Program-made: the position numbers and the translations under genes
In this document: piece after piece, positions 4,947 through 46,939 of the stretch
How the letters are laid out: the number at the start of each line of letters is the position of its first letter
Position numbering within the stretch: position 1 is the stretch's first letter
Notes under the pieces: generated by a model
The model's input: the letters and a program-made list of their open reading frames with translations, nothing else
What the model was told of the DNA's origin: nothing
Database searches by the model: none
Source of the DNA: Thermoplasmatales archaeon
GTDB taxonomy: Archaea > Thermoplasmatota > Thermoplasmata > Thermoplasmatales > Thermoplasmataceae
Reading direction: 5' to 3'
DNA: 64,000 bases
Assembly (NCBI GenBank): GCA_027310185.1
Contig: DAIDBH010000013.1
Span: forward strand, 1-64,000

Positions 4947-5045
4947 ATGTATATAGAGATAGAGTGGTTGATTGTACCTATTGTGATAGTTGCATCTGGC
5001 TGTGCATATTTACTCTATAGCATAATTAGAGCTGAGAAAATATGA
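4947..5045 (+). CDS. kdpF: K+-transporting ATPase subunit F (32 aa, not in the ORF track)
   Basis: MYIEIEWLIVPIVIVASGCAYLLYSIIRAEKI*: single TM helix with a KdpF-type YLxY.xxRxEK C-terminus; its TGA overlaps the kdpA ATG (ATGA). Confidence 0.85.
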   Translation: MYIEIEWLIVPIVIVASGCAYLLYSIIRAEKI

Positions 5046-6811: not shown

Positions 6812-8799
6812 ACAGTTATGCTGAAGCGGTTTTGAATGCTCTTAAGGAATTTGATCCAAGGAAACTGTACAGGAATCCTGTGATGTTCATAACAGAAATA
6901 GCACTCATGTTTTCATTATATCTCATAGTCTTTCATCAGGAATATCATCTGGAAATGAGTGGACTCTACGTACCATTCTATATTTCAGTTGTAGTGCTTC
7001 TGTTCCTTACTATTTTCTTTTCAACACTAGGAGAAGCACTTGCCGAGGGAAAGAGCAGAAATATAACTGCAACTCTCAAAAAAATGAAGAAGGAAACGAC
7101 TGGAAGAATAGTTGATGGTTCATCTGAAAAAGTTGTAGATTCCTCTGAACTGAGGAAGGGCATGATTGTAGAAGTCAGGAAAAATGAAATGGTTCCTACT
7201 GATGGAGAGGTAGCTGAAGGTAGAGGATATTTCAATGAATCTGCAATTACTGGCGAATCGAAAGCAGTGTTCAAAGTAAATGGAGACAGTGTAACGGGTT
7301 CAACAACATTTCTTGATGATAGTATTAAGATAAGAATTACAGCTAATCCGGGAGAAACATTCCTGGACAAGATGATAGAGATGGTTGAGGGATCTGTCCG
7401 GAAAAAGACTCCAAATGAAATAGCACTTTCAATTCTTCTGGCTGGCCTCACCCTTGTATTCATCGTTGTCACATCATCAATATTTCCTCTTGGAGGTTTC
7501 CTGTCAGATCATGTGAACCTGATCATTCTGGTAGTTCTCCTGATAACACTGATTCCAACAACTATCGGTGCACTCCTTCCCGCCCTGGGGGTGGCCGCTA
7601 TAAATAAGGTTTCGCAATTCAATGTAATAGCCAAAAGTGGAAGAGCTGTGGAAAATGCTGGTGATATTGATACTATAATTCTCGACAAAACTGGCACTAT
7701 TACAATGGGAGAACGTGATGCCTCCAAGATATATCCTAATAAGGGAATATCTGAAGAAGAAATGGCAAAGATCTGCTACCAGAGCTCATATTTAGATGAA
7801 ACAAGGGAAGGTATTTCACTTGTAAAATATGTTTCAGAACGTTATCGGGGCCTTGAAAATTACAAAATCAATAATGCGGAGTTCATTCCGTTCTCCTCTG
7901 AGACAAAATTCAGTGGAATAGCATACGAAGGCCATAAATTATTCAAGGGATCGCCTCACGCTATCTGGGATATTCTTGGTCAAAAGGACAATTTCATAGA
8001 TGCAATATGCGCTGAAATTTCCAGCAGAGGAGGAACAGCAATGGTACTGGTATTGGACAGCCAGGTGATTGGCGCAATAGAATTCAACGATATAATAAAA
8101 CCTTGGATAAACGAGAGAATCAAGACCATGAAAACCATGAATATCAAAACTGTCATGTGTACGGGAGATAACGAGCTTACAGCTGAATATATATCGCGAG
8201 AGGCAGGACTTGATGAATTCGTTGCAAACAGCAAGCCTCAGGATAAGTACAAAAAGGTTGAGGCAGAAAAGAATCAGCAGAGAATGGTGGCAATGGTCGG
8301 AGATGGTACAAATGACGCTCCGGCACTGGCTCTAGCAGATGTGGGTCTCGCCATGAATAATGGGACACAGGCTGCAAAAGACGCTGCAAACATGATCGAT
8401 CTTGATAATGATCCAACAAAATTGATGGATGTGATCTTCCTTGGAAAGCAGATTCTCATAACAAGAGGTTCACTGACAACATTCAGTATTGCAAATGACA
8501 TATCAAAATATTTTGTCATAATTCCGGCAATTTTTTACGCATTCCCGGCACTATCGTTCATCAATATACTTGGTTTTACCGATCCTCTGCTTGCCATAAC
8601 ATCAGCACTAATATTCAATACAATAATAATCCCACTTCTAATTCCACTTGCCATAAGAGGTGTTAGGTTCAAGCCATCAACTGTTGATGAGCTTCTGAAG
8701 AGGAATATTACCATTTACGGATTTGGGGGAGTTGTCCTGCCATTTATAGCCATTGGCCTGATCTATCATTTGCTTCTTGGGGTGGGTATTTTATGGTAA
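6808..8799 (+). CDS. kdpB: K+-transporting P-type ATPase subunit B
   Basis: NPVMF, TGES, LIPTTIG, DKTGTIT, GDGTNDAPALA, TTFSIANDISKYF. Confidence 0.97.
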   Translation: MNSYAEAVLNALKEFDPRKLYRNPVMFITEIALMFSLYLIVFHQEYHLEMSGLYVPFYISVVVLLFLTIFFSTLGEALAEGKSRNITATLKKMKKETTGRIVDGSSEKVVDSSELRKGMIVEVRKNEMVPTDGEVAEGRGYFNESAITGESKAVFKVNGDSVTGSTTFLDDSIKIRITANPGETFLDKMIEMVEGSVRKKTPNEIALSILLAGLTLVFIVVTSSIFPLGGFLSDHVNLIILVVLLITLIPTTIGALLPALGVAAINKVSQFNVIAKSGRAVENAGDIDTIILDKTGTITMGERDASKIYPNKGISEEEMAKICYQSSYLDETREGISLVKYVSERYRGLENYKINNAEFIPFSSETKFSGIAYEGHKLFKGSPHAIWDILGQKDNFIDAICAEISSRGGTAMVLVLDSQVIGAIEFNDIIKPWINERIKTMKTMNIKTVMCTGDNELTAEYISREAGLDEFVANSKPQDKYKKVEAEKNQQRMVAMVGDGTNDAPALALADVGLAMNNGTQAAKDAANMIDLDNDPTKLMDVIFLGKQILITRGSLTTFSIANDISKYFVIIPAIFYAFPALSFINILGFTDPLLAITSALIFNTIIIPLLIPLAIRGVRFKPSTVDELLKRNITIYGFGGVVLPFIAIGLIYHLLLGVGILW

Positions 8800-9449
8800 A
8801 CTGGAAGGAAATAATTAGGGTTTTCAGAGGGTCTATAATTATCACGGTGATTGTATTTGTGCTTCTGGGGCTGGTAATTCCAACAGTCACTGCAGTCATA
8901 ACGGAAAAGGTTGATCCCGGATCTGGGAATGGAAATCAGATAAAAATTAATGGTAAGGTGTATGGAAGTTATTATCTGGCACAGGCTTTCAACAAATCAT
9001 ACTTTTTCCAGCCAAGACCTTCTGCCATAGACTATAACCAATCTTCATCTGGTGCCCTTTGCTGTTCACCAAACACCAATGCATCGCTGTTGCAGCTGGA
9101 GACGAATTTAAAAGAATTCGAACAGATGAACAAGAATGTTTCAATTTCTCAAATTCCAGGAGAAGTTATAATGGATTCTGATTCAGGATTAGATCCTAAT
9201 ATCCCTCTCTCTGCTGCACTGCTGGAAGAACCAAGAGTTGCCAATTCGATCGTGTCTTTTGCGAAATCTGTAAATGTTACATTGAAACTGCGGAATGTAG
9301 GCAGTTTCCTGAACAGCACAATAAACTCAACTGAAAGACAGAATTTTCCAATATTCGGTTCATATTATGTCAACATCATGTACCTTGATGTGCAGATTAT
9401 AATATTCCTAATGAACAGTAACGTGTTAACAAACTCATCTCTTAATTAA
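8793..9449 (+). CDS. kdpC: K+-transporting ATPase subunit C
   Basis: N-terminal TM, Q.F...YFQPRPSA and SGLDPNI motifs; follows kdpB. Confidence 0.92.
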   Translation: MVNWKEIIRVFRGSIIITVIVFVLLGLVIPTVTAVITEKVDPGSGNGNQIKINGKVYGSYYLAQAFNKSYFFQPRPSAIDYNQSSSGALCCSPNTNASLLQLETNLKEFEQMNKNVSISQIPGEVIMDSDSGLDPNIPLSAALLEEPRVANSIVSFAKSVNVTLKLRNVGSFLNSTINSTERQNFPIFGSYYVNIMYLDVQIIIFLMNSNVLTNSSLN

Positions 9450-10244
9450 AACCGAGTCTGTTGGAACGTCTTTTATTATTTTTTTAATATCTGAATTTAT
9501 CCTAACGTTCGAATAACTGTCCGGTCTAACACCCAGTACGACAAAATCTGAAGAGGTGGAATAAACCCTTTGAAGTACTGAATCTCTCAGATCGCTTCCA
9601 TGTATTTCCGCAATCTCATAATCAAGTTTTAGTTCTTTCCAGATCTCTGCGTTCATCAATGTTTTAAAACCGTGAATTTTCTTTTTATCGAATGACCTCA
9701 TATCGCATAGGTAGAATTTGGCGTTGAGTACCTTTGACATGACAGCAGCCAGATAGACAGATTTACGGGTATTCAGCCTTTCACTCATGGGAACCAGGAT
9801 CTTCCTGTATGGATATGTACTCCTTTTGATGGAAAGAGAGGCAGTGGTATTCTTCGAATGCTTGATTATATAATCTCCGAGACCGCCAAATAATGACGCT
9901 GAGACACCAGATCTTGATCTGCAACTGAAAAGAACTAGATCGTAGTTCTTCGAATTCGCCTCCCTTATAATGCCCTCCTTGACATTTCTTGCACTCTGTA
10001 TCTTTGGAATAACCCTGAGTCCCTTCTGGCTGGATTCCTTATATGCCTGCATGACAACGGCGACCTTGTCACTCCATGTAACTTCCTTGGATTCGTCCTT
10101 TATTGTAAGTGCTGTTATTTCTGAGCCGAAAACCCTTGCGAAGTCACTTGCAAATTCGAAAGCCCTCCTGGAACTCTCCCCCTTTGCCATTGGCACTAGA
10201 ATTCTATCAGCCTTTGCATAATAAGAGGAAACTGAATCCATCAT
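9435..10244 (-). CDS. Tandem-domain universal stress protein (KdpQ-like context)
   Basis: Two USP repeats (RILVPM...YDLV...GGLGDYIIKHS; KILVPM...DFVVLG...PTDSVLIK); convergent on kdpC. Confidence 0.85.
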   Translation of the reverse strand: MMDSVSSYYAKADRILVPMAKGESSRRAFEFASDFARVFGSEITALTIKDESKEVTWSDKVAVVMQAYKESSQKGLRVIPKIQSARNVKEGIIREANSKNYDLVLFSCRSRSGVSASLFGGLGDYIIKHSKNTTASLSIKRSTYPYRKILVPMSERLNTRKSVYLAAVMSKVLNAKFYLCDMRSFDKKKIHGFKTLMNAEIWKELKLDYEIAEIHGSDLRDSVLQRVYSTSSDFVVLGVRPDSYSNVRINSDIKKIIKDVPTDSVLIKR

Positions 10245-10641
10245 TGATAATGTATTACATTAGCATAATAAATAGTTTTGTTTTGTATTTAAATATGAAA
10301 TATTTATAATATCTGAATTAAAACGATAAATAAAGGATATCATCAAAATAATTTTAAATTTAATACTGACAGATAGTATCATGATAACTAATAACAATAA
10401 ACTTATTTTCTTGCCTAGTTTGCTATAATTAATTATGTTAAATATAGTTATTGGAAAATATTATGTCCATAATTCTATATCTGGCACATATAAATGTTTC
10501 ATGGAATGAACATAACATGTGAATCTGGTTTATAATGTCTGTTTCTCCAAGTTTCTGAAACCAAAGATTGTAATCTATCCTGAAAAAGTTGAATGCAGAA
10601 TTTATAGAAAACATTTTCATAGGGGGTAACTTACACTTACT

Positions 10642-11121
10642 ATGCATTGCTTGATCATTCACAAAGGTAAAATCGAAGGCATGGAAGACATGGAAGAACT
10701 GGCAAGGGTTCCTTACGACGAGGCTTTTGTTGTTGACCTTGATGCAATATCACATTATCATTTTAATTTCAAGCTGTATAATGAACTTTCTAAATATATC
10801 GAATTTACCCTGATGGCATATCCATATAAGGAAAACGACCTGATGGATATAATAGTGTCAGGTGCGTCAAGGGTTGTCATAAATGATACCCTGGAAATAG
10901 ATACCATAAAGAAGTTTATCGATGTTACAGATGAACTTGTAATGCGATGTTCCGATAGCGAAAAGGCCCATATGTTTCACGGCCTGACAGGAAATATGTA
11001 TCTTTCATGCAAGATATTCGATGTTCCAGGTGTTTTTTTCTACTATGGACCATTTTTGAACAGGGGACCAAATATTATTCCACTGGAAAATTTTCCTGAT
11101 GAATTAAGGATAGACTGCTAA
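10642..11121 (+). CDS. Short HisA/HisF-related beta/alpha protein
   Basis: VVDLDA and GASRVVI motifs resemble HisA/HisF strands; only 159 aa. Confidence 0.55.
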   Translation: MHCLIIHKGKIEGMEDMEELARVPYDEAFVVDLDAISHYHFNFKLYNELSKYIEFTLMAYPYKENDLMDIIVSGASRVVINDTLEIDTIKKFIDVTDELVMRCSDSEKAHMFHGLTGNMYLSCKIFDVPGVFFYYGPFLNRGPNIIPLENFPDELRIDC

Positions 11122-16055: not shown

Positions 16056-16505
16056 TCACTTCCTGGTTATCTTGATGTAATAACCAATGAAAACCAGAAT
16101 TGAAACAAGGCTCAGTACAACGCTTACTATGACAAGCTCTCCAAGGTTGTAGGATCTGTAACTGACCCTGAAATGAATCAAATCATTTGATTGCTTTAGT
16201 ATTATGTGACCTGAAGAAATATTTGAAGTATAATCATAGGGAAGAGCTATGGTATAATTGTATGTTCCGTCAGGTAAAGATATGTTCAGGTAGTAACCTG
16301 ATGATTCATAGGATTTATTGTTTATCTGAATGGTGAAATTAAGGTTTGATGGCAGACAGCATGATTGGAATACAACATAATTGGATGTCCTTGTCATGGA
16401 AGTTTCAGAAGTGGTCACATGTTGCCCTCCAGAAGCACCGGCTGTAAAGAGCGATGAAATGAGCAGTATGAGAAGCAGGGATATGATCAGGCGCTTTCCA
16501 TTCAT
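16056..16505 (-). CDS. Small surface protein with one Thermoplasmatales-type beta repeat and a C-terminal TM anchor
   Basis: Signal peptide; VVF....LPS...F.I.IN...LPDGTYNY repeat similar to those at 40820-42736; C-terminal TM followed by RK. Confidence 0.75.
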   Translation of the reverse strand: MNGKRLIISLLLILLISSLFTAGASGGQHVTTSETSMTRTSNYVVFQSCCLPSNLNFTIQINNKSYESSGYYLNISLPDGTYNYTIALPYDYTSNISSGHIILKQSNDLIHFRVSYRSYNLGELVIVSVVLSLVSILVFIGYYIKITRK

Positions 16506-37537: not shown

Positions 37538-38848
37538 TCAGGTAAGAGATTTTCCCCTTGTTTCAGGAGCCAGAACCATTGTGAAGCCGAATCCTATTAT
37601 CTCGAATATTGCAAAGAAAAGAAGACCATAGGTTATGTTCAACCCACTTATGAGAATCGGAAACGCGAACACTCCGAGAATGGCCCCTAATCTTGAAGCG
37701 GCGGTTGATACTCCCATAGCTGTACCCCTTATCCTTGTTGGAAATATTTCTGCTGGATACAGATAGGTTATGTTTGTTGGTCCTGTGTTATGGAAGAAAT
37801 GCATCAGTGCAAATGCAGAGAAGATCATTATGAATGGAAGCACAGAGTGGAATGATATGATGCCAAATGCAATTAGAGATATTCCAGCAAGCAGAAATCC
37901 TGTGGACTCAAGCTTCTTTCTTCCCACCTTGTCTATCGCTAGAAGGCAGACAATTGTTCCCGCAAACACTGGAATCTCTTCTAGCAGTGTTGAAATAATG
38001 GTTGCTACGTAGGATGATCCTTCCTGGATGAAAAGCGAAGGTGTGTAATTCCAGACACCGTAACTTGCAACATCGTAACAGAACCATGCTACAGAAGTGA
38101 ACAGTATCAGGCGATAAACTCCATTCCTTCCCCTCATTTCTGATTGTCCTTTTTGTACTTCTGGTGGCGAAACTCTTTCCTTTGTACTCAGCGACTTGAC
38201 CTCATTCACCACAGTTTCCGCTTCTTTCTCAGAACCATTCAGCATTAACCAATACGGGCTTTCCGGAATATTTCTCCTTGAGATAATTACAATCAATGGA
38301 ATAATCGCTCCTGTAATGTACATAATTCTCCATGAAATATCTCCAAAATTCAGTACTATGGGTATGGAGATGACATAGAAAGCAATGGAACCAAATGTCC
38401 AGGAGAATATATTGAAGACCAGCAACCTTCCTCTTGTTTTCTTTGGGGAAAACTCAGCCTGAATGGATGAACTTATGGGATAATCTGCACCGATTCCCAA
38501 ACCTGCAAGGATTTGAAATGCTACAAATTCTATGAAATTATGTGAAAGACCTGTAAGTATGAGAAAAACTGCCGTGATTAGTAAATCGTACACATAGATT
38601 CTCTTCCTGCCAAGCAGGTCCGATAGCCTTCCAAGAATTATGCTTCCAAAGAACATTCCTATGTAAATAGATGAGGCTGCTATGGATGTAATTATAGCAA
38701 TGCTCAGGAAGCTGTATTTAAGATAAATATATGCACTAGAAAATATGGATAATGCATATCCGTCCATGAATACGCCCATTGATGAGAGGATTGTTATAAC
38801 CCATATTTTCCTTGAAAGAACTACATTTTCAAAGTCGATGTTTTCCAA
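37538..38848 (-). CDS. MFS transporter (sugar porter-like)
   Basis: DGY, G.LSDLLGRK, GIGADYP, AEFSP...RG, PESP.W, DKVGRK, AEIFPT.IRG, PETRGKSL. Confidence 0.92.
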   Translation of the reverse strand: MENIDFENVVLSRKIWVITILSSMGVFMDGYALSIFSSAYIYLKYSFLSIAIITSIAASSIYIGMFFGSIILGRLSDLLGRKRIYVYDLLITAVFLILTGLSHNFIEFVAFQILAGLGIGADYPISSSIQAEFSPKKTRGRLLVFNIFSWTFGSIAFYVISIPIVLNFGDISWRIMYITGAIIPLIVIISRRNIPESPYWLMLNGSEKEAETVVNEVKSLSTKERVSPPEVQKGQSEMRGRNGVYRLILFTSVAWFCYDVASYGVWNYTPSLFIQEGSSYVATIISTLLEEIPVFAGTIVCLLAIDKVGRKKLESTGFLLAGISLIAFGIISFHSVLPFIMIFSAFALMHFFHNTGPTNITYLYPAEIFPTRIRGTAMGVSTAASRLGAILGVFAFPILISGLNITYGLLFFAIFEIIGFGFTMVLAPETRGKSLT

Positions 38849-38888: not shown

Positions 38889-39269
38889 CATCTTCTTTTG
38901 ATTATATTTTCAAGATTTTCTAAAATGAAATTCAATGGTGGCATAGCCCCAAATTTCTTTGTTCTCAACTTGACCATATAATTTTTCAAGGTCGGCACCT
39001 GTCTTGTTAATTTCATTTTTAATCCTGCCTTGTCCATGTTCATTACATGACATGGTATTGCCACGTAGTCTCCCTTATCAAAATAGTCTAAGGCATTATC
39101 AGGTGTGACTCTATGCTTTTAAAACCTTCTCCGGATTATGTGCCATAAATCCATCCATCTGTTTTTTAGCATTCTCCAACTCCTGCTCAATCTGGTCTTT
39201 AAATGCCTGTCTTACCTCGCTAAATTTGTATTCAGACAGAAACTCCTCCTCTTTAAGAAGTTTATTCAT
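38889..39269 (-). pseudogene. Possible frameshifted gene remnant downstream of tRNA-His
   Basis: An ATG at 39269 gives 52 aa (MNKLLKEEEF...KVLKA*). Open stretches continue in shifted frames (KHRVTPDNALDYFDKGDYVAIPC...; MSCNEHGQGRIKNE...IWGYATIEFHFRKS). Family not recognised. Confidence 0.3.
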
Positions 39270-39331
39270 TTCCTTTGCTTTATGTATTAAAAGTTTAAAT
39301 GTTGTCTTACGGTATTGAACTTTTTGCAAAG

Positions 39332-39404
39332 GGCCGGGTCCGGGAATTGAACCCGGGTCCGGGGATCCACAGTCCCCAAGGATATCCCCTACCCCAACCC
39401 GGCC
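39332..39404 (-). tRNA. tRNA-His (GUG) with encoded G-1
   Basis: G-GCCGGGT...GGGAC-TGTGGA-TCCC...GGTTCAATTCC...ACCCGGC-C; cloverleaf stems pair; CCA not encoded. Confidence 0.95.
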
Positions 39405-39502
39405 ATGTAACACTGTAATTCTTTAAGATATTTTAATCATTCTCAGCGGATCCACTTAAAATGCAGAAAAGACATATTTAAAATGTAACCATATGGGTAT
39501 TA

Positions 39503-40171
39503 ATGCTTCAACTTAATATAATTGACTCAGAGCTGGAACTCGTGCCTGAGAAAATGTGCGACGATTATCAGATCAGAAAAATAGCAAACACTAGAGACAA
39601 GAGACCAGAAGAAATGATTCTTGATTCTAACTATATGCATGGTGCCATAGATAGAGCATATCCAGGAAAATCTAATAGAATTGGAAGACCAGACATATTC
39701 TATCATCTGCTAAATGTAACACAGGATTCAATTCTAAACAGATTAGGATATCTGGAAACTGTAATTCACACAAAGAATGATGAGATCATCAGGATAAACA
39801 GTGAAACCAGGATGCCAAAGTCGTACAATCGATTTATCGGATTGATGGAAAAGCTATTGAAGAATGGAAAAGTGGAATCCCCAGATGGAAAGGCCCTGAT
39901 GTACGTGGAAAAAGGAAAATGGAATTCTATGAATCATGACGATTATGACAGGATACTGCTTTCTCCGAAGGGTAAAAAAACTAGGCCAAGTGACATATTT
40001 AGAAATAAGAATAATTACAGTGTATTCATAGGAGGTTTCTCGGAAGGGGATTTTGTCAGTCCTGTTTACAGGGAATTGGAACCAATCTCCATATTTGATG
40101 ATGAATTGACCATATGGACAGTTGGATGGGAAATAATTTCCAGTATGGAGACCTTAGAAGGGATCAGGTAG
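39503..40171 (+). CDS. nep1: 16S rRNA pseudouridine N1-methyltransferase Nep1/Emg1
   Basis: ELELVP, ILDSNY, GRPDI.YH.L...DS.LN, IHT, R.PKSYNRF.GLME.LL, IGGFSEG. Confidence 0.93.
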   Translation: MLQLNIIDSELELVPEKMCDDYQIRKIANTRDKRPEEMILDSNYMHGAIDRAYPGKSNRIGRPDIFYHLLNVTQDSILNRLGYLETVIHTKNDEIIRINSETRMPKSYNRFIGLMEKLLKNGKVESPDGKALMYVEKGKWNSMNHDDYDRILLSPKGKKTRPSDIFRNKNNYSVFIGGFSEGDFVSPVYRELEPISIFDDELTIWTVGWEIISSMETLEGIR

Positions 40172-40218
40172 ATCATTAAACCTAAAATTTATTACTATTC
40201 TAATTATAAGGGGTCGAA

Positions 40219-40291
40219 GCGGGTGTGGTGTAGCCTGGTAACACGCGAGCTTGCCAAGCTCGTGCCTCGGGTTCAAATCCCGGCACCCGCA
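40219..40291 (+). tRNA. tRNA-Gly (GCC)
   Basis: GCGGGTG...CGAGC-TTGCCAA-GCTCG...GGTTCAAATCC...CACCCGC-A. Confidence 0.96.
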
Positions 40292-40660
40292 CTAATTTTG
40301 ATGTCCGTTGATTGATCTGGGGCATAAAAGACGTTTTGAGATCGATTTTCTTTGTGAAAAAAATTTAAAGGTACGTTGTGAAATATAATAGTTAAAAATT
40401 ACTTGTTAATCCGTGATTTAGAACTGAATAGATAATTACCATATGGTCAGCATTCTGCAGGCGTCGTGTGCTCAGTTGTAAAGGCGGCTTTGAAAAGATT
40501 AGATCAATATATCTTTATGCTTCCAGATAACTAAATTGGATAGGTATTCAAGTTCTTCATACGTGCTAATGAATTTTCTGAAATTGTAGTTAATGGCCAT
40601 TTGAAATCGTATCTGGATATTTAGCTTTAAATAAACAGATGATACATTTCTTCAGTTTTT

Positions 40661-40711
40661 CCTAAATATTAGTTATGTATACACATAGTTAGTATTAAAC
40701 TAATATTTAGG
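40661..40711. repeat. Perfect 14-bp inverted repeat with a 23-nt spacer
   Basis: CCTAAATATTAGTT (40661-40674) and AACTAATATTTAGG (40698-40711), upstream of a TTTTATATAA TATA-like box (40781-40790). Confidence 0.8.
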
Positions 40712-40819
40712 TATTTCATTGATTTAACAGTATTTTTAGACCTTAATGCATTATATATTTTTTTTATAATATTTTGTGGTTTTTATATAAGGTTATAGGC
40801 TCAGGCGTCATGATTAATT

Positions 40820-42736
40820 ATGTATAAAAAACATATTAATAAAATTATAAATAAGAAAGTAATTTTAGCAATAGCAGTCTCCCTAATATTAATGGTATCA
40901 TCGAGTCTGTATGTTATTGATCAGTCCAGCAGTTTCACAGGCCCAGGTGTTACTGGTACACCATATGTATCATCTGGCCTTTACAATGTTTCCTTCACTG
41001 AGACTGGTCTAGCCAGTGGAATACAGTGGAACGTATCACTCAGTGGGTCCGCTGAAGTTTCCACAACAGGCATGATCAGCTTCCATGTGGCAAATGGAAC
41101 GCATTCATTCACTGTTGGAAATATTTCAGGATACTCAGCATCACCCATTACTGGTAGTGTTGACGTGAGTGGCTCAGCTGTGGCTGAAGCGATAGCCTTT
41201 GTTGCCATGAAGCCAGTCTCCATAGCACCAGTTGAACTTGGAACTGCAGCCCAGTATACCATACTTGCGAAGACAGGCATATCAACAACCGGAACCACAT
41301 CCATAACCGGAAATATTGGTGTCAGTCCTGCAGGAAGCACATACATTACGGGATTCTCCCAGACACTGAGCTCCACAGGACAGTATGCAACATCATCAAT
41401 GGTAACAGGAAAAATATATGCAGCAACATATGCATCCCCAACACCATCTGATCTCACAACAGCAATAGGTGACATGCAAACAGCATACACAAATGCAGCT
41501 GGAAGAGTTAATCCTGGATACGTAAATCTTGGTGCCGGAAATATAAATGGCATGACTCTTGTACCCGGGTTGTATAAATGGGGAACTGGAGTATCCATAT
41601 CCACAAGCATAACCCTGACTGGTAATGCAAGTTCAGTCTGGGTCTTCCAGATATCTGGAGGACTGACATTCGGTAACGGTGCTCAAATAATACTGAAGGA
41701 TGGAGCAGAGCCAAAGAACATATTCTGGCAGGTTGCAAGCGGTGTGTCAATAGGTACAGGCGCTTCTTTCTATGGCATAGTTATGTCACAAACTGATATA
41801 ACAATTGCAACAGATTCAAGCATGACTGGACTTGCACTCGCGCAAACAGCAGTGACCCTTGAATCCGATAACGTAGTAAACCCAACATTAGCACAGAATG
41901 TGACCGTAAAGACTTATACTATTTCATTTACAGAAGTAGGTCTTCCATCTGGAACTGCATGGAATGTAACATTAAGTGGGCGATTACTTAAATCCACTAC
42001 ATCAACAATCATGTTCACAGAACCAAATGGAACATATTCGTATACTGTAGCTTCAAGCACAACAGAACTTATTCATCCATCTACCGGAACAGCATCAGTC
42101 AACGGAGAAAATGCATATCAGGCAGTCATGTTCACATCAGCAACAGAGAAAACTTACAGTGTAAATTTCGTTGAAACAGGACTTCCATCGGGAATGCAGT
42201 GGGGGGTTTCCTTGAACGGAGCTGCTACCACAACAGTCAGTCCTGATGTTAATTTCGCTGTGCCAAATGGAACTTACTCTTACATGATAGAGGCACCGAC
42301 AAACTACGGAGCATCACCACACAGTGGATCCAGCAAAGTAAATGGAAATGATGTAAATGTATCAGTTACATTCACACTGGTGAAATACAGTGTGACATTT
42401 ACTGAGACCGGTCTGCCATCTGGAATAATATGGTATGTGAATTCAACTCTAATGGCATCATCCGGACCACAATCTGAATCCAGCTATACTATTGGCCTTT
42501 CAAACACAACCTATTCATACTTTGCCAGCTCAAATGATAAGTCATATCATGATATAAATGGTACATTCACAGTCAGTGGTCATTCAATATCTGTATCACT
42601 AAAGTTTGCAAATGACAATGTAAAGTCTGCAAGCACTTCTAACTCATATTTATACATCATTGCAGGTGTAATAGTTGTAATAGCAGCAATAGGGGCAGGA
42701 GCAGCTTTAATTATGAGGAAGAGAACTTCCAAGTAA
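40820..42736 (+). CDS. Cell-surface protein with a DUF3494 ice-binding domain and four Thermoplasmatales-type beta repeats
   Basis: PVELGTA..YTILAKTGIS...ITGNIGVSP...TGKIYAA.YA.PTP..LTTAI.DM.TAY..AAGR...TLVPGLYKW...VWVFQI...NIFWQVA...LAQTAVTL is the DUF3494/IBP-1 beta-solenoid. F.E.GL.SG..W.V repeats occur once before and three times after it. N-terminal signal, C-terminal TM plus RKR. Confidence 0.92.
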   Translation: MYKKHINKIINKKVILAIAVSLILMVSSSLYVIDQSSSFTGPGVTGTPYVSSGLYNVSFTETGLASGIQWNVSLSGSAEVSTTGMISFHVANGTHSFTVGNISGYSASPITGSVDVSGSAVAEAIAFVAMKPVSIAPVELGTAAQYTILAKTGISTTGTTSITGNIGVSPAGSTYITGFSQTLSSTGQYATSSMVTGKIYAATYASPTPSDLTTAIGDMQTAYTNAAGRVNPGYVNLGAGNINGMTLVPGLYKWGTGVSISTSITLTGNASSVWVFQISGGLTFGNGAQIILKDGAEPKNIFWQVASGVSIGTGASFYGIVMSQTDITIATDSSMTGLALAQTAVTLESDNVVNPTLAQNVTVKTYTISFTEVGLPSGTAWNVTLSGRLLKSTTSTIMFTEPNGTYSYTVASSTTELIHPSTGTASVNGENAYQAVMFTSATEKTYSVNFVETGLPSGMQWGVSLNGAATTTVSPDVNFAVPNGTYSYMIEAPTNYGASPHSGSSKVNGNDVNVSVTFTLVKYSVTFTETGLPSGIIWYVNSTLMASSGPQSESSYTIGLSNTTYSYFASSNDKSYHDINGTFTVSGHSISVSLKFANDNVKSASTSNSYLYIIAGVIVVIAAIGAGAALIMRKRTSK

Positions 42737-43426
42737 TTTAGCAGGCTGGTCCACTAATTCAATAATAAATCTATTTTTAAATCATTTTCTTAATAAAGAG
42801 TGAGAATGAATTTCTGTAATTGTTTTTTATTAATATTTTTAATTCAAATTTTATAATTTAACTTCACAATTTTTTATATGAATGCCTATGCCAGAGAGCT
42901 TGATTATGTTTTATAAGGAAACGCTATTGTTCCAATGATTTAAACGGTTATGATAGTTCATCGTTTTAAGTTCAATCTCACCAGTTATTATATGAAGGTA
43001 AATGGAAACAGACTAGACTAAATTAATTGTCAGATCTATAAAAACTGTTAACTGAGAAGTCAGTGTGAACAAGATGAAAATAAGTACAGGTAATAAGTTC
43101 AATTTAGAAAGAACCTGGGCATTACAAAAGTTACCAGGGCTATTGATATTCCACTAAATGGAACATCTTTACTTCTTTCCTCTTATACTTATTTATTTTA
43201 GAGTAGACCACTCTCATGTTGGCTGTTAATCTCTGTATTGTGGTCTAATCAAAAGATGGCCAGTTACACCTTTCAGAATGATAGGAGTTGGTTGATAACA
43301 GGAAATCGAACTTTCTTGAGCCCAAAGCTATCAAGGGTTCTGCTTGAACAGGTTTTAATTCATCTATAATCAAAAGAATTGGATTGATAATTTTTAAAAA
43401 TAGTTTAAGAAATTTTCAACGGAACA

Positions 43427-45061
43427 TCAATCAAGCAGGGCATCCGTTGACATCAGTGGTTGTTTTGGCGCAGAGAACAGTCCAATTCCCCAGAATATGA
43501 TTGCGTAGATGAACAGTACTAGATAATCATAAGGATATGGAATGAAATTTATTCCTCCAGTAGGTGTGCCTCCCAGATATGATAGTACAATCATTCCAGC
43601 GATATATATGGGAATCCAGATTGAATTTGAAAGATTGAGATTCTTAAAGTTCTTCCTGTAAGCCTGGTATAGAAACACAAGCGACCCAGCAAGTGTTGCC
43701 CCCAAAGCGTAAAGTGTTGTTGGATAGGTTGACCAATAAATCAGGTATGTGGCTATAACGAAAGCGACCAGAGACCAGAGTGTTGCATATGGTATCTTGA
43801 AAGGCCTCTCGAGATTTGGATACAATCTTCTTAAGACTGGCAGACTCAATGACGCTACGGCGAAATTTGCCACTGCAGCAACCACCACAAAATCTACCAG
43901 TGCGTACCATGACGGAAGTGGCAACAGGAAAATAATTGACATGATTACAATTATTATCAGTGAAAATACAGGTGCACCGTGCTTCGTTGTATATTTCAAC
44001 TTTTCCGGGAGCGCATCTTCCTCAGCATATCCAAACAGTATCCTGCTTGCACCTGTGAGATAAACTCCCAGTGTTCCACCGGGAGAGAATATGGCAAATA
44101 TGAAGAAGATGATTATCAGAATAGAAAGCAGACCTGCCACAGATGGACTTACGAATGAAAGATTACTTTTCATTATATCAGCAAGTGGAGAACCTAGATG
44201 TGATATTGTTGCCCAATCTCCTGCCTTAATTTTAAATCCACTAAAGTTCACAGAACCAATCATGACCACTGCCATGCCAATGTACAGTAAACTCTGTATG
44301 GCAAGAACTGCACCTATTATTTTCGGCATTGATTTTTTAGGATTTTTCACCTCCCCTGCCATATCGGCAACCTGCCTGTAACCACCAAAGGAGAAAAGAA
44401 TTCCTGAGGCTGGAATTGCAATGAATATTCCTCCAAATGAGGTCGCAAACTCAGGAGTGGTGAAATTAGATGGGTGGAAGATGAAAATTGGCAGTATGAC
44501 GATAAAAGCAACTACTATTCCTATTTTGACCCATGTTAATATATTGTTGAAAGCAGAGAACTTTCCAATTCCTAACAGATTCAAGAAGAAGAATCCAAGC
44601 AATAAAAGAACAGAAAGCAATATACCATATCCCGTCAGGACTCCAGTAGTTGAATCATACAGGAACGGAAAGTAGAACGATGCGTAGGTTGAAACTGCCA
44701 CTGCTTCAATAGCTGGAATTGTGGCAGCCCATATCAGTAGGGCCCATCCTGATAAGAATCCGCCATATGATCCATATGAATAATAAGCAACCCTTGCACT
44801 GATTCCTGACCTTGGAAACATTGCTGCGTATTCTGCAAACGGGAGTGTAACAAGGACGATGAATATCGCAGTTAGAATCCAGGAAATTATATCTGCCGGT
44901 CCTGCGTAAAGAAGACCTCCAGCAGCGGCAAAGAGAATTCCAGATCCTACTGCACCTCCTACACCGAACATTATGGCCTGACCAGTCGTTATTCCTCTTT
45001 TCAATCCAGTTTTTGTGGTTTCATAACCATCACCTGATGTGATCCCTATGTCATTTTCCAT
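43427..45061 (-). CDS. APC-family amino acid permease
   Basis: GGAVGSGI, AGPA, FAEY...P.SG, F.F.GY....AGEVKNP; about 14 TM segments. Confidence 0.92.
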   Translation of the reverse strand: MENDIGITSGDGYETTKTGLKRGITTGQAIMFGVGGAVGSGILFAAAGGLLYAGPADIISWILTAIFIVLVTLPFAEYAAMFPRSGISARVAYYSYGSYGGFLSGWALLIWAATIPAIEAVAVSTYASFYFPFLYDSTTGVLTGYGILLSVLLLLGFFFLNLLGIGKFSAFNNILTWVKIGIVVAFIVILPIFIFHPSNFTTPEFATSFGGIFIAIPASGILFSFGGYRQVADMAGEVKNPKKSMPKIIGAVLAIQSLLYIGMAVVMIGSVNFSGFKIKAGDWATISHLGSPLADIMKSNLSFVSPSVAGLLSILIIIFFIFAIFSPGGTLGVYLTGASRILFGYAEEDALPEKLKYTTKHGAPVFSLIIIVIMSIIFLLPLPSWYALVDFVVVAAVANFAVASLSLPVLRRLYPNLERPFKIPYATLWSLVAFVIATYLIYWSTYPTTLYALGATLAGSLVFLYQAYRKNFKNLNLSNSIWIPIYIAGMIVLSYLGGTPTGGINFIPYPYDYLVLFIYAIIFWGIGLFSAPKQPLMSTDALLD

Positions 45062-45232
45062 GATATTCCATAGACATCATATTACTAAAAGATTATTTAT
45101 AATGTAGTTTTATATATTTCTTAATTTTAGTGAGGTGAAGTGCGAATTAATATTGACAGACAGAAAGTGAATTTGTGTAAAATAATCGTAATCAATAAAT
45201 ATTCAATACAGATTGAATGGAGGTGAATTAAC

Positions 45233-45814
45233 ATGTTATTTTTATCCGAAGAAAGAAACACCTTAGGTGATCGTAAACGTTCAGATTTTCATTTATCATT
45301 CAATGAAGATAAGTTTCAGGATATTAACACATTAGATGATCAGGTACTGGAATCTGAAAGAACGGATTACAACAGGATATTCAAACTGGTTAAGAAGAAT
45401 GTAAAGAAATTTCTGGGAAAGGAAAGAACAGGTCTGGGACTGGCACTTTCAAATTTACCGAACACAGTTGGCGCATACTGGCAGTTGGGAGGTAATTATA
45501 TAGTCATGAATGAAACTATCGTAGGCTATATGCGGTCAGCCACGCATACAGTAAAGGAATTCAATTCCTTCCTGTTCACAATTCTTGTCCATGAATACAT
45601 CCATTCAGTAGGTTATGTGGATGAGATGGAAGCCAGGAGAATGACTGCACTGGTAACAAGGATGGCCTTTGGAAAAGATCATATTGCTGCAAGAATAGGG
45701 GCCTCGGATCTGTGGCAGCTTTATCCCAGCCTGCTTCTTCTGCCCAGTGGAGATGGAAGCAAAATGAAGATTGTAAATAACTTTGACTCGGATGCCACTT
45801 CTTACATTACGTAA
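45233..45814 (+). CDS. Small putative zinc metalloprotease (HExxH)
   Basis: GAYW..GGNYIVMN followed by ILVHEYIHSVG..DE. Confidence 0.7.
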   Translation: MLFLSEERNTLGDRKRSDFHLSFNEDKFQDINTLDDQVLESERTDYNRIFKLVKKNVKKFLGKERTGLGLALSNLPNTVGAYWQLGGNYIVMNETIVGYMRSATHTVKEFNSFLFTILVHEYIHSVGYVDEMEARRMTALVTRMAFGKDHIAARIGASDLWQLYPSLLLLPSGDGSKMKIVNNFDSDATSYIT

Positions 45815-45844
45815 TTGCTAATATCAGGTTAATTATATCATATT

Positions 45845-46939
45845 ATGAGACTTGATAATGCTATTTTTAAGGACAGAATTGAAAGACTACGCAGAATGAT
45901 GAAAGAATCTTCAATTGATGCATTTCTGATTCCTCCTGGTGCAAATTTCACGTATTTCACTGGAATGGAAGTTGAATCCATGGAAAGACTGACACTTCTT
46001 GTTGTGGATTTGCAAAATACCACAGTTGTCTGCCCATCCCTTATGAAGGAACAGGTAATCGAGGAGAGCCCTATCAGAGACATATTACCTTGGAAGGATG
46101 ACGAAAATCCTTATTCTATAACCCGTGAACTGATCATTAAATCTCAAAATATTGCAGTGGAAGGTACGCTCCAGTTCTTTCATTTATATGAGCTCAACAG
46201 GACCGTTGAGAAAGAGTTGCTATACAGGGATGACATACTTACGAAATTGAGGATCATAAAAGATGAGAACGAATTATCAGCTATCAGGGAGGCAGTAAAG
46301 AGATCTGAAAAATCTCTTGAAGTTTCCATAGAAAAACTTGTTCCTGGAATCACGGAGATACGGTTCTCAAGGATACTTGAGAATGAATTTTTCAATCAGG
46401 GCCTTTCTGGAGTTGCATTTTCAACAATCGTATCATTTGGAAAAAATGCTGCAATGCCCCATCATTCCCCTGATAATACGAAAGCGAAAGCAGGAGATTC
46501 TGTGGTTGTAGATTATGGAGGTAGGTTTGACGGTTATGCATCAGATAGCACCAGAACTTTCTTCCTTGGAAATCCAGGTGAAAGGATGCTTGATGTGTAT
46601 GAAACAGTTAAGCATGCTAACGAAGATACCAGAAACATGATAGGAAAAGATACAACATATGCAGCAATGGACGTGATCGCACGGAGTATAATCGAGAAGA
46701 AAGGTTACGGAAAATATTTCATACACAGACTTGGCCATGGACTGGGCCTTCAGGTTCATGAGGAACCTTACCTCATTCCAAAAAATGATTACAGTGTACT
46801 CAAAAACTCTGTGTTTACCATAGAGCCTGGGATTTACATAGAGAACCTGGGAGGAGTAAGAATTGAAGATACAAATTATTTCAATGGAAGCAAGTGCATA
46901 GCCTTCAATACAATGCCAAGAGAGTGTGTAATTCTATGA
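45845..46939 (+). CDS. Xaa-Pro dipeptidase (M24B), second paralogue
   Basis: VDYGG...GYASDSTRT, HRLGHGLGL.VHEEPY, TIEPGIY....GGVRIED. Confidence 0.92.
   Translation: MRLDNAIFKDRIERLRRMMKESSIDAFLIPPGANFTYFTGMEVESMERLTLLVVDLQNTTVVCPSLMKEQVIEESPIRDILPWKDDENPYSITRELIIKSQNIAVEGTLQFFHLYELNRTVEKELLYRDDILTKLRIIKDENELSAIREAVKRSEKSLEVSIEKLVPGITEIRFSRILENEFFNQGLSGVAFSTIVSFGKNAAMPHHSPDNTKAKAGDSVVVDYGGRFDGYASDSTRTFFLGNPGERMLDVYETVKHANEDTRNMIGKDTTYAAMDVIARSIIEKKGYGKYFIHRLGHGLGLQVHEEPYLIPKNDYSVLKNSVFTIEPGIYIENLGGVRIEDTNYFNGSKCIAFNTMPRECVIL

What the first reader, a model, noticed from the sequence alone, without database searches (positions are those of the whole stretch)
40820..42736. Membrane-tethered, stalked DUF3494 ice-binding protein built on a native Thermoplasmatales surface scaffold
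Seen: a complete-looking DUF3494 domain (about 41230-41885) sits between the first and second of four F.E.GL.SG..W.V beta repeats, with an N-terminal signal/TM and a C-terminal TM plus basic tail. It has Thr/Ser-rich strands (GVSISTSITLTG, GVSIGTGA, DITIATDS, AVTLESD). Established: DUF3494 (IBP-1) proteins bind ice, spread by horizontal transfer, and occur as tethered multi-domain proteins in cold-adapted bacteria; Thermoplasmatales are wall-less acidophiles best known from warm habitats. Inference: a foreign ice-binding module was shuffled into a lineage-specific surface protein, giving an acid-stable ice-recrystallisation inhibitor or an ice/mineral adhesin. The gene sits alone between AT-rich flanks right after tRNA-Gly, which fits recent acquisition.
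Basis: partly seen in the sequence, partly recalled or inferred. Interest (0 to 1): 0.82.

Follow-up and report, generated by a model that had tools for sequence, protein, structure and literature searches.

The report
Membrane-tethered ice-binding-type protein, acidophilic archaeon
The gene is real and encodes a cell-surface protein of an acid-mine archaeon that holds an intact ice-binding-type (DUF3494) head on a stalk of lineage-typical repeats, but the same design is already annotated in cultured relatives, so it is a new member of a known kind whose real ligand (ice or a mineral surface) is still untested.

Summary
ORF 40820-42736 (+) encodes 638 aa: N-terminal hydrophobic signal or anchor, repeat R1, a full PF11999/DUF3494 domain (E 4.3e-69), repeats R2-R4, a C-terminal TM helix and an RKRTSK tail.

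The head models onto solved ice-binding proteins (TM 0.90-0.95, 45-54% identity). Its putative ice-binding b-face is flat and made of Gly/Ser/Thr/Ala, so it is not degenerate. The repeats are a native CnaB-like surface module, found in 9 other long frames of this genome.

- The fusion is old and lineage-wide. All 44 Thermoplasmataceae-type domains form one clade.
- The design occurs in 8 of 103 family genomes.
- It is already annotated in cultured Cuniculiplasma divulgatum ("ice-binding cell surface protein", cluster 79% identical) and Ferroplasma (60%).
- Close relatives that lack the gene carry a decayed remnant of the neighbouring permease. This points to deletion in them, not recent insertion here.
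- Codon usage looks native.

The DNA occurs in runs labelled as mine-tailings, mine-drainage and microbial-fuel-cell metagenomes. RNA-library contigs cover the gene.

Function is untested. My estimate is ice binding for freeze-thaw protection at about 0.4 and a non-ice surface adhesin at about 0.35. The scan earlier noted a similar tethered DUF3494 protein in a DPANN archaeon. Interest is moderate.

The parts
40219..40292 (+). tRNA-Gly(GCC). Its 3' end is the exact left border of the segment that is variable within the genus.
   Evidence: ARAGORN and Rfam at 63.8 bits. Homology to G023 and G144 stops at 40291.
40293..40819 (+). AT-rich upstream intergenic region. It holds a TATA-like TTTATATA at 40782-40789, 30 nt before the ATG, which suggests a short or absent leader.
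   Evidence: Sequence read directly; GC 0.27-0.28. The promoter role is inferred. No similarity to the flanks of homologues in other genomes.
40820..42736 (+). CDS of the 638-aa tethered DUF3494 surface protein, stop codon included.
   Evidence: A 99%-identical, same-length cluster (P0001, 15 members) was found.
40841..40918 (+). N-terminal hydrophobic segment (aa 8-33) after a Lys-rich start. It is a Sec-type signal peptide or a signal anchor.
   Evidence: Kyte-Doolittle scan; modelled as helix 6-29 at low pLDDT. Cleavage was not testable.
40979..41212 (+). Repeat R1, a CnaB-like beta-sandwich lying N-terminal of the head.
   Evidence: Repeat profile E 3.6e-29; 40% identical to R2.
41228..41884 (+). 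DUF3494 / IBP-1 beta-solenoid head (aa 137-355) with its side helix at aa 210-227.
   Evidence: PF11999 E 4.3e-69. PDB sequence hits from E 3e-67. Foldseek TMt 0.90-0.95, rmsd 1.6-2.2 A.
41909..42145 (+). Repeat R2 (stalk).
   Evidence: E 9.0e-30. Single-domain model at pLDDT 94.2. VIA Z 8-9 to CnaB, pilin and transthyretin-like sandwiches.
42149..42382 (+). Repeat R3 (stalk).
   Evidence: E 6.4e-29.
42380..42613 (+). Repeat R4 (stalk, nearest the membrane, most divergent).
   Evidence: E 4.5e-22; alignment.
42635..42733 (+). C-terminal transmembrane helix (aa 606-635) and basic cytoplasmic tail RKRTSK.
   Evidence: helix 609-634 in the model. Tails of the R/K-K-x-x-S/T-K or RKK(K) type recur across the family.
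42737..43426 (.). AT-rich downstream intergenic region with nothing recognisable in it.
   Evidence: Only ORFs of 25-43 aa and no Rfam match. An RNA-library contig of the permease reaches 43218.
43427..45061 (-). Amino-acid permease gene (APC family), the neighbour inside the same variable segment.
   Evidence: PF13520 E 5e-40. G023 and G047 keep only a decayed ~80-bp 5' remnant of it.
40292..44979 (.). The 4.7-kb segment present here but missing in the closest genomes G023 and G047. In G144 the missing stretch is 40292-45373.
   Evidence: blastn borders at 40291 and 44980; gene-level synteny. One contig of DNA run X7 joins 40291 to 45179, but with a short side of 28.

Best explanation
The gene encodes a type-I membrane glycoprotein of a wall-less, acidophilic Thermoplasmataceae archaeon, probably a Cuniculiplasma species.

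After export, the C-terminal helix holds it in the membrane with the basic tail inside the cell. Three CnaB-like sandwich domains (R2-R4) form a stalk of roughly 10 nm. The membrane-distal end carries R1 plus an intact DUF3494 beta-solenoid.

The most likely mechanism is that the flat, uncharged Gly/Ser/Thr/Ala b-face of the solenoid orders water and adsorbs to ice. Crystals forming next to the naked membrane are then pinned and cannot recrystallise, or the cell stays in liquid veins, during freeze-thaw in cold mine waste.

Shown: the architecture, the fold, the composition of the face, the age and spread of the family, and presence in RNA libraries.
Inferred: topology, glycosylation, stalk length, and ice as the natural ligand.

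The gene is an old accessory gene of the family, gained and lost among lineages. It is not a recent import into this genome.
For: - Family membership: PF11999 at 232.8 bits.
- Similarity to proteins with measured antifreeze activity: 45-54% identity and TMt 0.90-0.95 to Candidatus Cryosericum IBPs, LeIBP, TisAFP6/7/8 and FfIBP.
- Register check: using the ice-binding-site residue ranges given for TisAFP in PMC7966756 (passages) and the gapless register implied, all six inward 'trough' residues are hydrophobic here (I154, V258, L282, V309, I327, V345).
- Face composition: the 12 outward sheet positions read GSGSGTGSDTAT.
- Key positions: T152 and T346 sit where T20Y and A214Y cut TisAFP7 activity by 60% and 50% (PMC7966756).
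- Comparison across the family: these 12 positions are 89% T/S/A/G in the 44 Thermoplasmataceae domains and 70% in 185 other DUF3494 domains.
- Glycosylation: none of the 13 N-x-S/T sequons lies on those positions.
- Distribution: patchy, as expected of a niche gene. It is in 8 of 103 family genomes and 4 of 20 genera, with up to 4 matches in one genome.
- Ecology: C. divulgatum grows down to 5 C and was detected in Svalbard mine-drainage enrichments (PMC7285479, passages). Ice-covered acid ponds exist (PMC10050440, passages).
- Maintenance: the ORF is intact in every homologue examined.
Against: - No activity has been measured for any member of this clade.
- The same design is present in cultured Ferroplasma (cluster of P0007, accessions AGO61431.1 and ARD84348.1). 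As I recall, these come from a warm mine and a bioleaching reactor.
- The window's own DNA is found in runs labelled microbial fuel cell, mine tailings and mine drainage, none of them labelled cold. RNA-library contigs from a fuel-cell sample cover 40911-42733 with no differences. If that is transcription, it occurs without ice.
Raymond 2024 (PMC11645318, passages) states that DUF3494 proteins occur in non-freezing habitats, where they may bind minerals.
- The ice-binding-site positions are not more conserved than the rest of the domain within the clade (mean entropy 0.77 against 0.70 bits).
Confidence: 0.4

Rival explanations
1. Non-ice surface adhesin. The same flat beta-solenoid face binds another ordered, hydrated solid in acid mine waste, such as a sulfide or iron-sulfate mineral or a biofilm matrix. 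The stalk presents it so that the wall-less cell attaches to particles or streamers.
For: - Adhesin-like build: the stalk domains match Gram-positive pilin CnaB domains, SdrD B repeats and the SlaB S-layer stalk (VIA Z 7.4-8.7).
- Habitat labels are mine tailings, mine drainage and fuel cell.
- The design is present in cultured Ferroplasma and C. divulgatum.
- RNA-library contigs from a fuel-cell sample cover the gene.
- Raymond 2024 (PMC11645318, passages) and PMC12337378 (passages) both say DUF3494 proteins of non-freezing habitats may bind other substrates.
- The clade has its own fixed b-face residues where other DUF3494 domains vary: G280, T283, G308 and T328 against Q/E, D/N, Q and V/A.
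Against: - I know of no experimentally shown non-ice ligand for any PF11999 protein. The passages I read in PMC11645318 and PMC12337378 only suggest that such substrates may exist, and I ran no search aimed at this question.
- The face is as small-residue-rich as those of proven IBPs, or more so.
- The gene is absent from 95 of 103 family genomes that share the same habitats, which is odd for a general attachment function.
Confidence: 0.35
2. Another role for a rigid acid-stable module: a structural part of the glycocalyx, or a cell-cell recognition protein, for example towards DPANN partners that carry DUF3494 proteins of their own.
For: - The protein has very few charged residues, no Cys, 27% Ser+Thr and 13 sequons, as expected of acid-exposed glycoproteins.
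- A Micrarchaeota MAG holds a 59%-identical domain (L072).
- The scan earlier noted a tethered DUF3494 protein in a DPANN archaeon (e1-5046013).
Against: - A structural coat protein would be expected in most genomes, not in 8 of 103.
- Nothing links the gene to partner organisms.
- This is speculation from co-occurrence only.
Confidence: 0.15
3. One reading: a foreign ice-binding module was recently shuffled into a native protein, and the gene was recently inserted at tRNA-Gly in this genome.
For: - The gene lies directly 3' of a tRNA gene, and the closest genomes lack it.
- In G011 the homologue also follows a tRNA-Gly, anticodon CCC.
- GC3 is 0.309, the lowest of 43 ORFs in the window (mean 0.404, SD 0.040).
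- Homologues sit in unrelated contexts in five other loci.
Against: - One clade holds all 44 family domains (FastTree 99; IQ-TREE SH-aLRT 95).
- Head and repeats have a similar GC3 (0.32 against 0.28-0.34), and the RSCU distance is 0.411 against a mean of 0.395.
- The clade has half the charged residues of other DUF3494 domains (0.050 against 0.096), which implies long residence in acidophiles.
- G023 and G047 retain a decayed permease 5' remnant, with ATG changed to ATA and two 2-bp gaps. Their lack of the segment is therefore a deletion.
- No att repeat, integrase or transposase was found.
Confidence: 0.1

Closest known systems
Annotated homologues in cultured Thermoplasmataceae: 'ice-binding cell surface protein' of Cuniculiplasma divulgatum (SJK84579.1, 638 aa) and 'ice-binding family protein' of Ferroplasma (WP_009887486.1, 631 aa)
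   Same: Same length class and same order of parts: signal, R1, DUF3494, repeats, TM helix, basic tail. Their clusters are 79% and 60% identical to the window protein. They fall in the same clade in the domain tree.
   Different: A different species-level sequence. The genomic place of those genes could not be compared. They carry only automatic or submitter names: I found no paper that discusses them and no functional test.
SfIBP_1 of Shewanella frigidimarina (PDB 6bg8), a DUF3494 domain with tandem beta-sandwich domains proposed as an ice adhesin
   Same: A DUF3494 head combined with tandem beta-sandwich domains on a cell-surface protein. 6bg8 is matched at E 1.9e-20 by sequence and at TMt 0.81 by fold. 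Raymond 2024 (PMC11645318, passages) describes Big domains in bacterial DUF3494 proteins as suspected ice-adhesion aids.
   Different: Only 29% identity in the head. The sandwiches here are not Big or Pfam domains but a Thermoplasmata-specific repeat. The anchor is a C-terminal TM helix in a single archaeal membrane. The host is an extreme acidophile without a wall. That SfIBP_1 is lipid-anchored is recalled, not checked.
Soluble single-domain DUF3494 IBPs with measured activity: Candidatus Cryosericum IBPs (9lhn, 9li0), LeIBP (3uyu), TisAFP6/7/8 (3vn3, 7dc5, 5b5h), FfIBP (4nu2, 4nu3)
   Same: Same fold, with rmsd 1.6-2.2 A for the best of them, TMt 0.89-0.95 and 43-54% identity. The span has the same length and aligns without gaps to 4nu3. 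The b-face is flat and rich in small residues.
   Different: Those proteins are secreted single domains from cold-habitat organisms. This one is tethered and flanked by repeats. It has no Cys and about half the charged residues. It comes from acid mine waste.
Anchored DUF3494 proteins of other archaea: PGF-pre-PGF type (P0039, P0111), Lokiarchaeia (P0065), and the DPANN case e1-5046013
   Same: They are the nearest outgroups of the head domain in the tree. Several also end in a TM helix plus basic tail or a sorting signal.
   Different: They have other stalk domains (PF13205 Big_5 or none) and lack the F-x-E-x-GLP-x-G-x-x-W repeat.

Membership tests
PF11999 / DUF3494 (IBP-1) domain family | Profile match above Pfam's gathering score over the whole model | tested here: met
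   232.8 bits against 28.7, model positions 1-207 of 208. It is the only copy in the genome.
PF11999 / DUF3494 (IBP-1) domain family | Triangular discontinuous beta-solenoid braced by one long alpha-helix | tested here: met
   AF2 model with helix 210-227 beside the strands. Foldseek TMt 0.90-0.95 and rmsd 1.6-2.2 A to 4nu3, 9li0, 3uyu and 5b5h.
Functional ice-binding proteins of the DUF3494 fold | Flat b-face of small or hydroxyl residues over a hydrophobic trough, free of bulky or charged side chains | tested here: met
   The trough is I154, V258, L282, V309, I327, V345. The outward positions read GSGSGTGSDTAT, 11 of 12 being T/S/A/G. The register is taken from PMC7966756 and the equal-length alignments. 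It was not checked on coordinates.
Functional ice-binding proteins of the DUF3494 fold | Measured thermal hysteresis, ice shaping or recrystallisation inhibition | not testable with these tools
   Needs recombinant protein and ice assays.
NCBIfam NF045625 IBP_CFB (equivalog, Bacteroidota-type IBP) | Score above the curated equivalog cut-off | tested here: not met
   195.5 bits against a cut-off of 400. It is a relative of that equivalog group, not a member.
Tethered DUF3494 'ice adhesin' design (SfIBP_1 type) | DUF3494 head plus tandem beta-sandwich domains plus a membrane anchor | tested here: met
   Four sandwich repeats, a C-terminal TM helix and a basic tail. The sandwich family and the anchor type differ from the bacterial examples.
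Thermoplasmata surface-protein repeat (no Pfam model) | ~80-aa unit with F-x-E-x-G-L-P-x-G-x-x-W, recurring in long exported proteins of the lineage | tested here: met
   19 matches in G000, of which 15 lie in 9 other frames. Found in 11 of 201 genomes sampled over the phylum: f1 6/6, f5 1/1, f9 3/3 and other families 0/190.
tRNA-targeted integrative element / genomic island | Integrase gene and a direct repeat of the tRNA 3' end at the far border | tested here: not met
   No such repeat in 39300-45200. None of 11 neighbouring proteins is an integrase or transposase.

The most novel reading that the evidence does not exclude
In this lineage the DUF3494 head is not used for ice at all. It recognises a crystalline mineral or biofilm surface of acid mine waste at pH 1-2. 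That would be the first non-ice ligand shown for the family as far as I know, and it would explain why DUF3494 proteins abound in non-freezing habitats.
Probability: 0.3. Interest if true: 0.65.

Novelty: new member of a known kind. Interest (0 to 1): 0.36.

Why it matters
If the head binds ice, this would be an ice-binding protein built to work at about pH 1-2 on the bare membrane of a wall-less cell. That is a natural test of how naked membranes survive freezing, and a source of an acid-stable recrystallisation inhibitor.

If it does not bind ice, the clade is a clean system for finding what DUF3494 proteins do in the many non-freezing habitats where they occur. It has cultured hosts and natural presence/absence variants. 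This is an open question stated in PMC11645318.

Either way, the result corrects the idea of a recent island. The family is an old, repeatedly lost accessory gene of Thermoplasmataceae.

Tried and rejected
- **att-type repeat.** I looked for a direct repeat of the tRNA-Gly 3' end downstream of the gene and found none. Only short chance repeats and the protein's own repeats appear.
- **Mobile-element genes.** None among 11 neighbouring proteins.
- **Shared flanks.** Similarity between this locus and five homologous loci stops within about 50 bp of the CDS. The one exception is about 100 bp of weak (60%) alignment upstream in L049. No transferable unit can be drawn.
- **The search for related loci with the single protein.** It returned one distant repeat protein only.
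- **Metagenome scan with alignment A1.** None of the 79 loci matched query residues beyond 431, so it gave no context for stalked forms. The genome scan named only two stalked loci among 80.
- **Pfam on the repeats.** Nothing usable. Foldseek on the single repeat gave no hit at E <= 0.001. VIA-align gave only middling Z of 7-9, which shows a common sandwich fold and no function.
- **Gaps in RNA cover.** RNA-library contigs of X10 do not cover the intergenic stretches 40305-40907 and 42918-43118. Missing cover in contigs proves nothing, so I do not count this as evidence of transcription.
- **Joint in DNA run X7.** It runs from 40291 to 45179 and has a side of only 28 letters, so it is weak.
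- **Rfam on 39000-46000.** Only the two tRNAs.
- **Small ORFs in the downstream spacer.** Nothing notable.
- **Conservation of the ice-binding site within the clade.** It does not stand out from the rest of the domain (0.77 against 0.70 bits), so conservation does not single out that face.
- **Earlier notes of this scan.** None near this place.
- **AF2 coordinates.** They were not available to scripts. The faces were therefore assigned by sequence register, not geometry.
Full report
**1. What is there**

The window holds one long ORF at 40820-42736 (+), 638 aa. It lies 527 bp after tRNA-Gly(GCC) at 40219-40292. An amino-acid permease gene at 43427-45061 on the other strand starts 690 bp beyond it.

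Pfam finds one family, PF11999 (Ice_binding/DUF3494). The match covers residues 148-352 and positions 1-207 of the 208-position model, at E 4.3e-69. NCBIfam's Bacteroidota equivalog IBP_CFB scores 195.5 bits, below its cut-off of 400.

The motif F.E.GL.SG..W.V occurs at aa 59, 370, 450 and 527. Hydrophobic segments lie at aa 8-33 and 606-635, followed by RKRTSK. The protein has 13 N-x-S/T sequons, 27% Ser+Thr, few charged residues and no Cys.

**2. Structure**

An AlphaFold2 model built on 33 family sequences has mean pLDDT 76.8. It is low only in the two terminal helices and the linkers.

Foldseek places the head on solved ice-binding proteins:
- 4nu3: TMt 0.94-0.95, rmsd 1.7 A, 53% identity.
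- Candidatus Cryosericum IBPs 9li0 and 9lhn: 52-54% identity.
- TisAFP8 (5b5h), LeIBP (3uyu), TisAFP6 (3vn3) and FfIBP (4nu2): 43-48% identity.

By sequence these chains score E 1e-41 to 3e-67, and 4nu3 aligns over 219 residues without a gap.

A single repeat, modelled on 37 repeat sequences, reaches pLDDT 94.2. It is an eight-strand sandwich. Its matches are CnaB and pilin domains, SdrD B repeats, transthyretin-like domains and the SlaB stalk of the Sulfolobus S-layer, at Z 7.4-9.2. Foldseek finds no hit at E <= 0.001. That is a common stalk fold and carries no functional message.

Pfam has no model for the repeat.

**3. The binding face**

PMC7966756 (passages read) gives the ice-binding-site ranges of TisAFP: 19-25, 38-45, 123-129, 147-153, 174-180, 192-198 and 210-216. 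It also gives six inward 'trough' residues, and two mutants, T20Y and A214Y, that lose 60% and 50% of activity.

TisAFP chains align to query 137-353 over spans of equal length, so I used an offset of 132. In that register:
- All six trough positions are hydrophobic: I154, V258, L282, V309, I327, V345.
- T152 and T346 sit at the two mutated sites.
- The 12 outward sheet positions read GSGSGTGSDTAT.

For comparison, the active chimera 4nu3 reads G T T N N N A T G N A T at the same places. I read this off the printed alignment.

Across 44 Thermoplasmataceae domains these 12 positions are 88.7% T/S/A/G. In 185 other DUF3494 domains the figure is 70.1%. The face is therefore not degenerate.

Two cautions apply. 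And within the clade the site is no more conserved than the rest of the domain (0.77 against 0.70 bits).

**4. The repeats are native**

A profile of the repeat gives 19 matches in the window's genome. Four lie in this protein and 15 in nine other frames of 149-1678 aa.

Among 201 genomes sampled over the phylum (G000 included), it is found in 11: 6 of 6 other sampled genomes of the family, 1 of 1 of family f5, and 3 of 3 of family f9. It was found in none of 190 genomes of the other families, at E <= 1e-6.

**5. How old and how widespread is the fusion**

A search of 5.8 billion proteins gave 4409 hits among the 8000 candidates scored. Of the 120 listed, about 40 have the same plan: signal, often R1, DUF3494, one to six or more repeats, a TM helix and a basic tail.

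Named members of their clusters (identities) are:
- 'ice-binding cell surface protein [Cuniculiplasma divulgatum]' (SJK84579.1, 638 aa), in the cluster that is 79% identical.
- 'MULTISPECIES: ice-binding family protein [Ferroplasma]' (WP_009887486.1; AGO61431.1, ARD84348.1; 631 aa), in the cluster that is 60% identical.

For the domain tree I cut the head domain from 229 of 243 proteins. Fourteen without a match of at least 180 positions were dropped, mostly repeat proteins that lack the head.
- In a FastTree tree, all 41 rows with the repeat motif plus three more Thermoplasmataceae-type rows (P0060, P0064, P0094) form one clade of 44, support 99.
- An IQ-TREE quick search (LG+C20 PMSF) used 100 rows: the 44, the 30 nearest others and 26 random others, with 129 others left out. 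It gives the same clade with SH-aLRT 95.
- The nearest outgroups include an Altiarchaeia protein, two PGF-pre-PGF proteins, a Lokiarchaeia protein and a Methanoperedens protein. The donor was probably another archaeon. This is inferred, since most rows are unnamed and the tree is unrooted.

Among species-representative genomes, PF11999 is found in 6 of 151 of the order and 8 of 103 of the family. The hits fall in 4 of 20 genera, with up to four matches in one genome. Many of the genomes without a match are incomplete.

**6. The locus**

The closest genomes, G023 and G047, have a flanking EMG1 gene that is 86% identical. They align up to 40291 and again from 44980, and so lack 4.7 kb that holds this gene and the permease.

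The point where homology resumes lies inside the permease's first 27 codons. In G023 and G047 that stretch has ATA for the ATG and two 2-bp gaps. It is a decayed remnant, so these genomes lost the segment. The window's genome did not recently gain it.

Other genomes of the genus differ again:
- G144 lacks 40292-45373 and carries an 88%-identical permease fragment on another contig, next to tRNA-Thr.
- G098 has unrelated genes after the same tRNA-Gly and two homologues elsewhere.

The five homologous loci examined share no neighbours with this one. In G011, however, the gene again follows a tRNA-Gly, anticodon CCC. Similarity between loci ends at the CDS.

No att repeat, integrase or transposase was found.

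The gene's GC is 0.418 and its RSCU distance from the window's other genes is 0.411 (mean 0.395, SD 0.086). Its GC3 of 0.309 is the lowest of 43 ORFs (mean 0.404, SD 0.040). Head and repeats have a similar GC3.

The clade's domains have half the charged residues of other DUF3494 domains (0.050 against 0.096), which fits long residence in acidophiles.

**7. Habitat and expression**

Twenty listed runs from seven studies hold the 3.1-kb stretch or a part of it. They are labelled mine tailings, mine drainage, microbial fuel cell, sediment or plain metagenome. Six may be the source of the assembly.

In an RNA library of the fuel-cell sample, two contigs of 691 and 1186 letters cover 40911-42733 with no differences. 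This fits transcription but does not prove it, and depth cannot be compared between genes.

One DNA contig of X7 joins 40291 to 45179, which is the island-less form. Its shorter side is only 28 letters.

**8. Literature**

Searches for Thermoplasmatales, Cuniculiplasma or Ferroplasma with 'ice-binding', and for DUF3494 with 'acidophil', found no paper that discusses these proteins. The hits are reviews or reference lists.

- Raymond 2024 (PMC11645318, passages) states that DUF3494 proteins occur in freezing and non-freezing habitats and may bind minerals in the latter.
- PMC12337378 (passages) calls the family 'ice-binding and substrate-binding'.
- PMC7285479 (passages) reports growth of C. 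divulgatum down to 5 C, an optimum of 37 C and detection in Svalbard enrichments. Its cold-shock proteome used strain S5, and the passages found do not mention this protein.
- PMC10050440 (passages) lists ice-covered acid ponds among cold acidic habitats.

Supplements were not read.

The scan itself earlier noted a tethered DUF3494 protein in a DPANN archaeon (e1-5046013). I did not test that note.

**9. Verdict**

The feature is real. It is a membrane-tethered, stalked DUF3494 protein, one member of an old accessory family of Thermoplasmataceae that databases already label as ice-binding.

The head keeps every sequence and fold feature of active ice-binding proteins that I could test. I therefore rank ice binding first, as protection of a wall-less cell during freeze-thaw in cold mine waste, at about 0.4. 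A non-ice surface adhesin ranks close behind at about 0.35. The reasons are that the design also sits in cultured Ferroplasma and Cuniculiplasma, that the DNA is found in runs with no cold label, and that the family is common in non-freezing habitats.

Noticed in passing
window 40979-41212, 41909-42613; weak copy at 16197-16376 (-); G000 contigs C1, C7, C12, C13, C17: An ~80-aa surface repeat (Y-x-V-x-F-x-E-x-G-L-P-x-G-x-x-W ... NGTYSY) has no Pfam model. It folds as a CnaB/transthyretin-like sandwich (pLDDT 94). It gives 19 matches in this genome and was found only in families f1, f5 and f9 among 201 genomes sampled over the phylum. It would merit a family definition.
   Followed up: partly
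window 40292-45232: The site just 3' of tRNA-Gly(GCC) is a variable spot in the genus. This genome has the IBP gene plus a permease. G023 and G047 have a decayed permease remnant. G144 has nothing there. G098 has unrelated genes.
   Followed up: yes
L045 (G144:C10) 4984-5812: An 88%-identical copy of the window's amino-acid permease sits next to tRNA-Thr(CGT) on another contig of G144 and is cut by the contig end. The permease too seems to move between tRNA-adjacent sites.
   Followed up: no
window 37538-38848 (-): An MFS sugar-transporter gene lies between the S8e and tRNA-His/EMG1 genes. It has no counterpart at the syntenic place in G144.
   Followed up: no
L050 (G011:C1) 8583-10992: In a genome of another genus the homologous gene again lies directly downstream of a tRNA-Gly, here with anticodon CCC. 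The spacers share no similarity beyond the tRNA itself.
   Followed up: partly
P0045: A protein with the full Thermoplasmataceae design (repeats at 51 and 360, TM helix, tail MRKKK) is filed under a Leptospirales MAG. Because it has the Thermoplasmataceae-type repeat and groups inside that clade, it is probably a binning error in a mine-waste metagenome.
   Followed up: no
window 45233-45814 (+): A conserved 193-aa ORF has no Pfam match. Orthologues are present in G023, G047 (85% identical) and G144 (59%).
   Followed up: no
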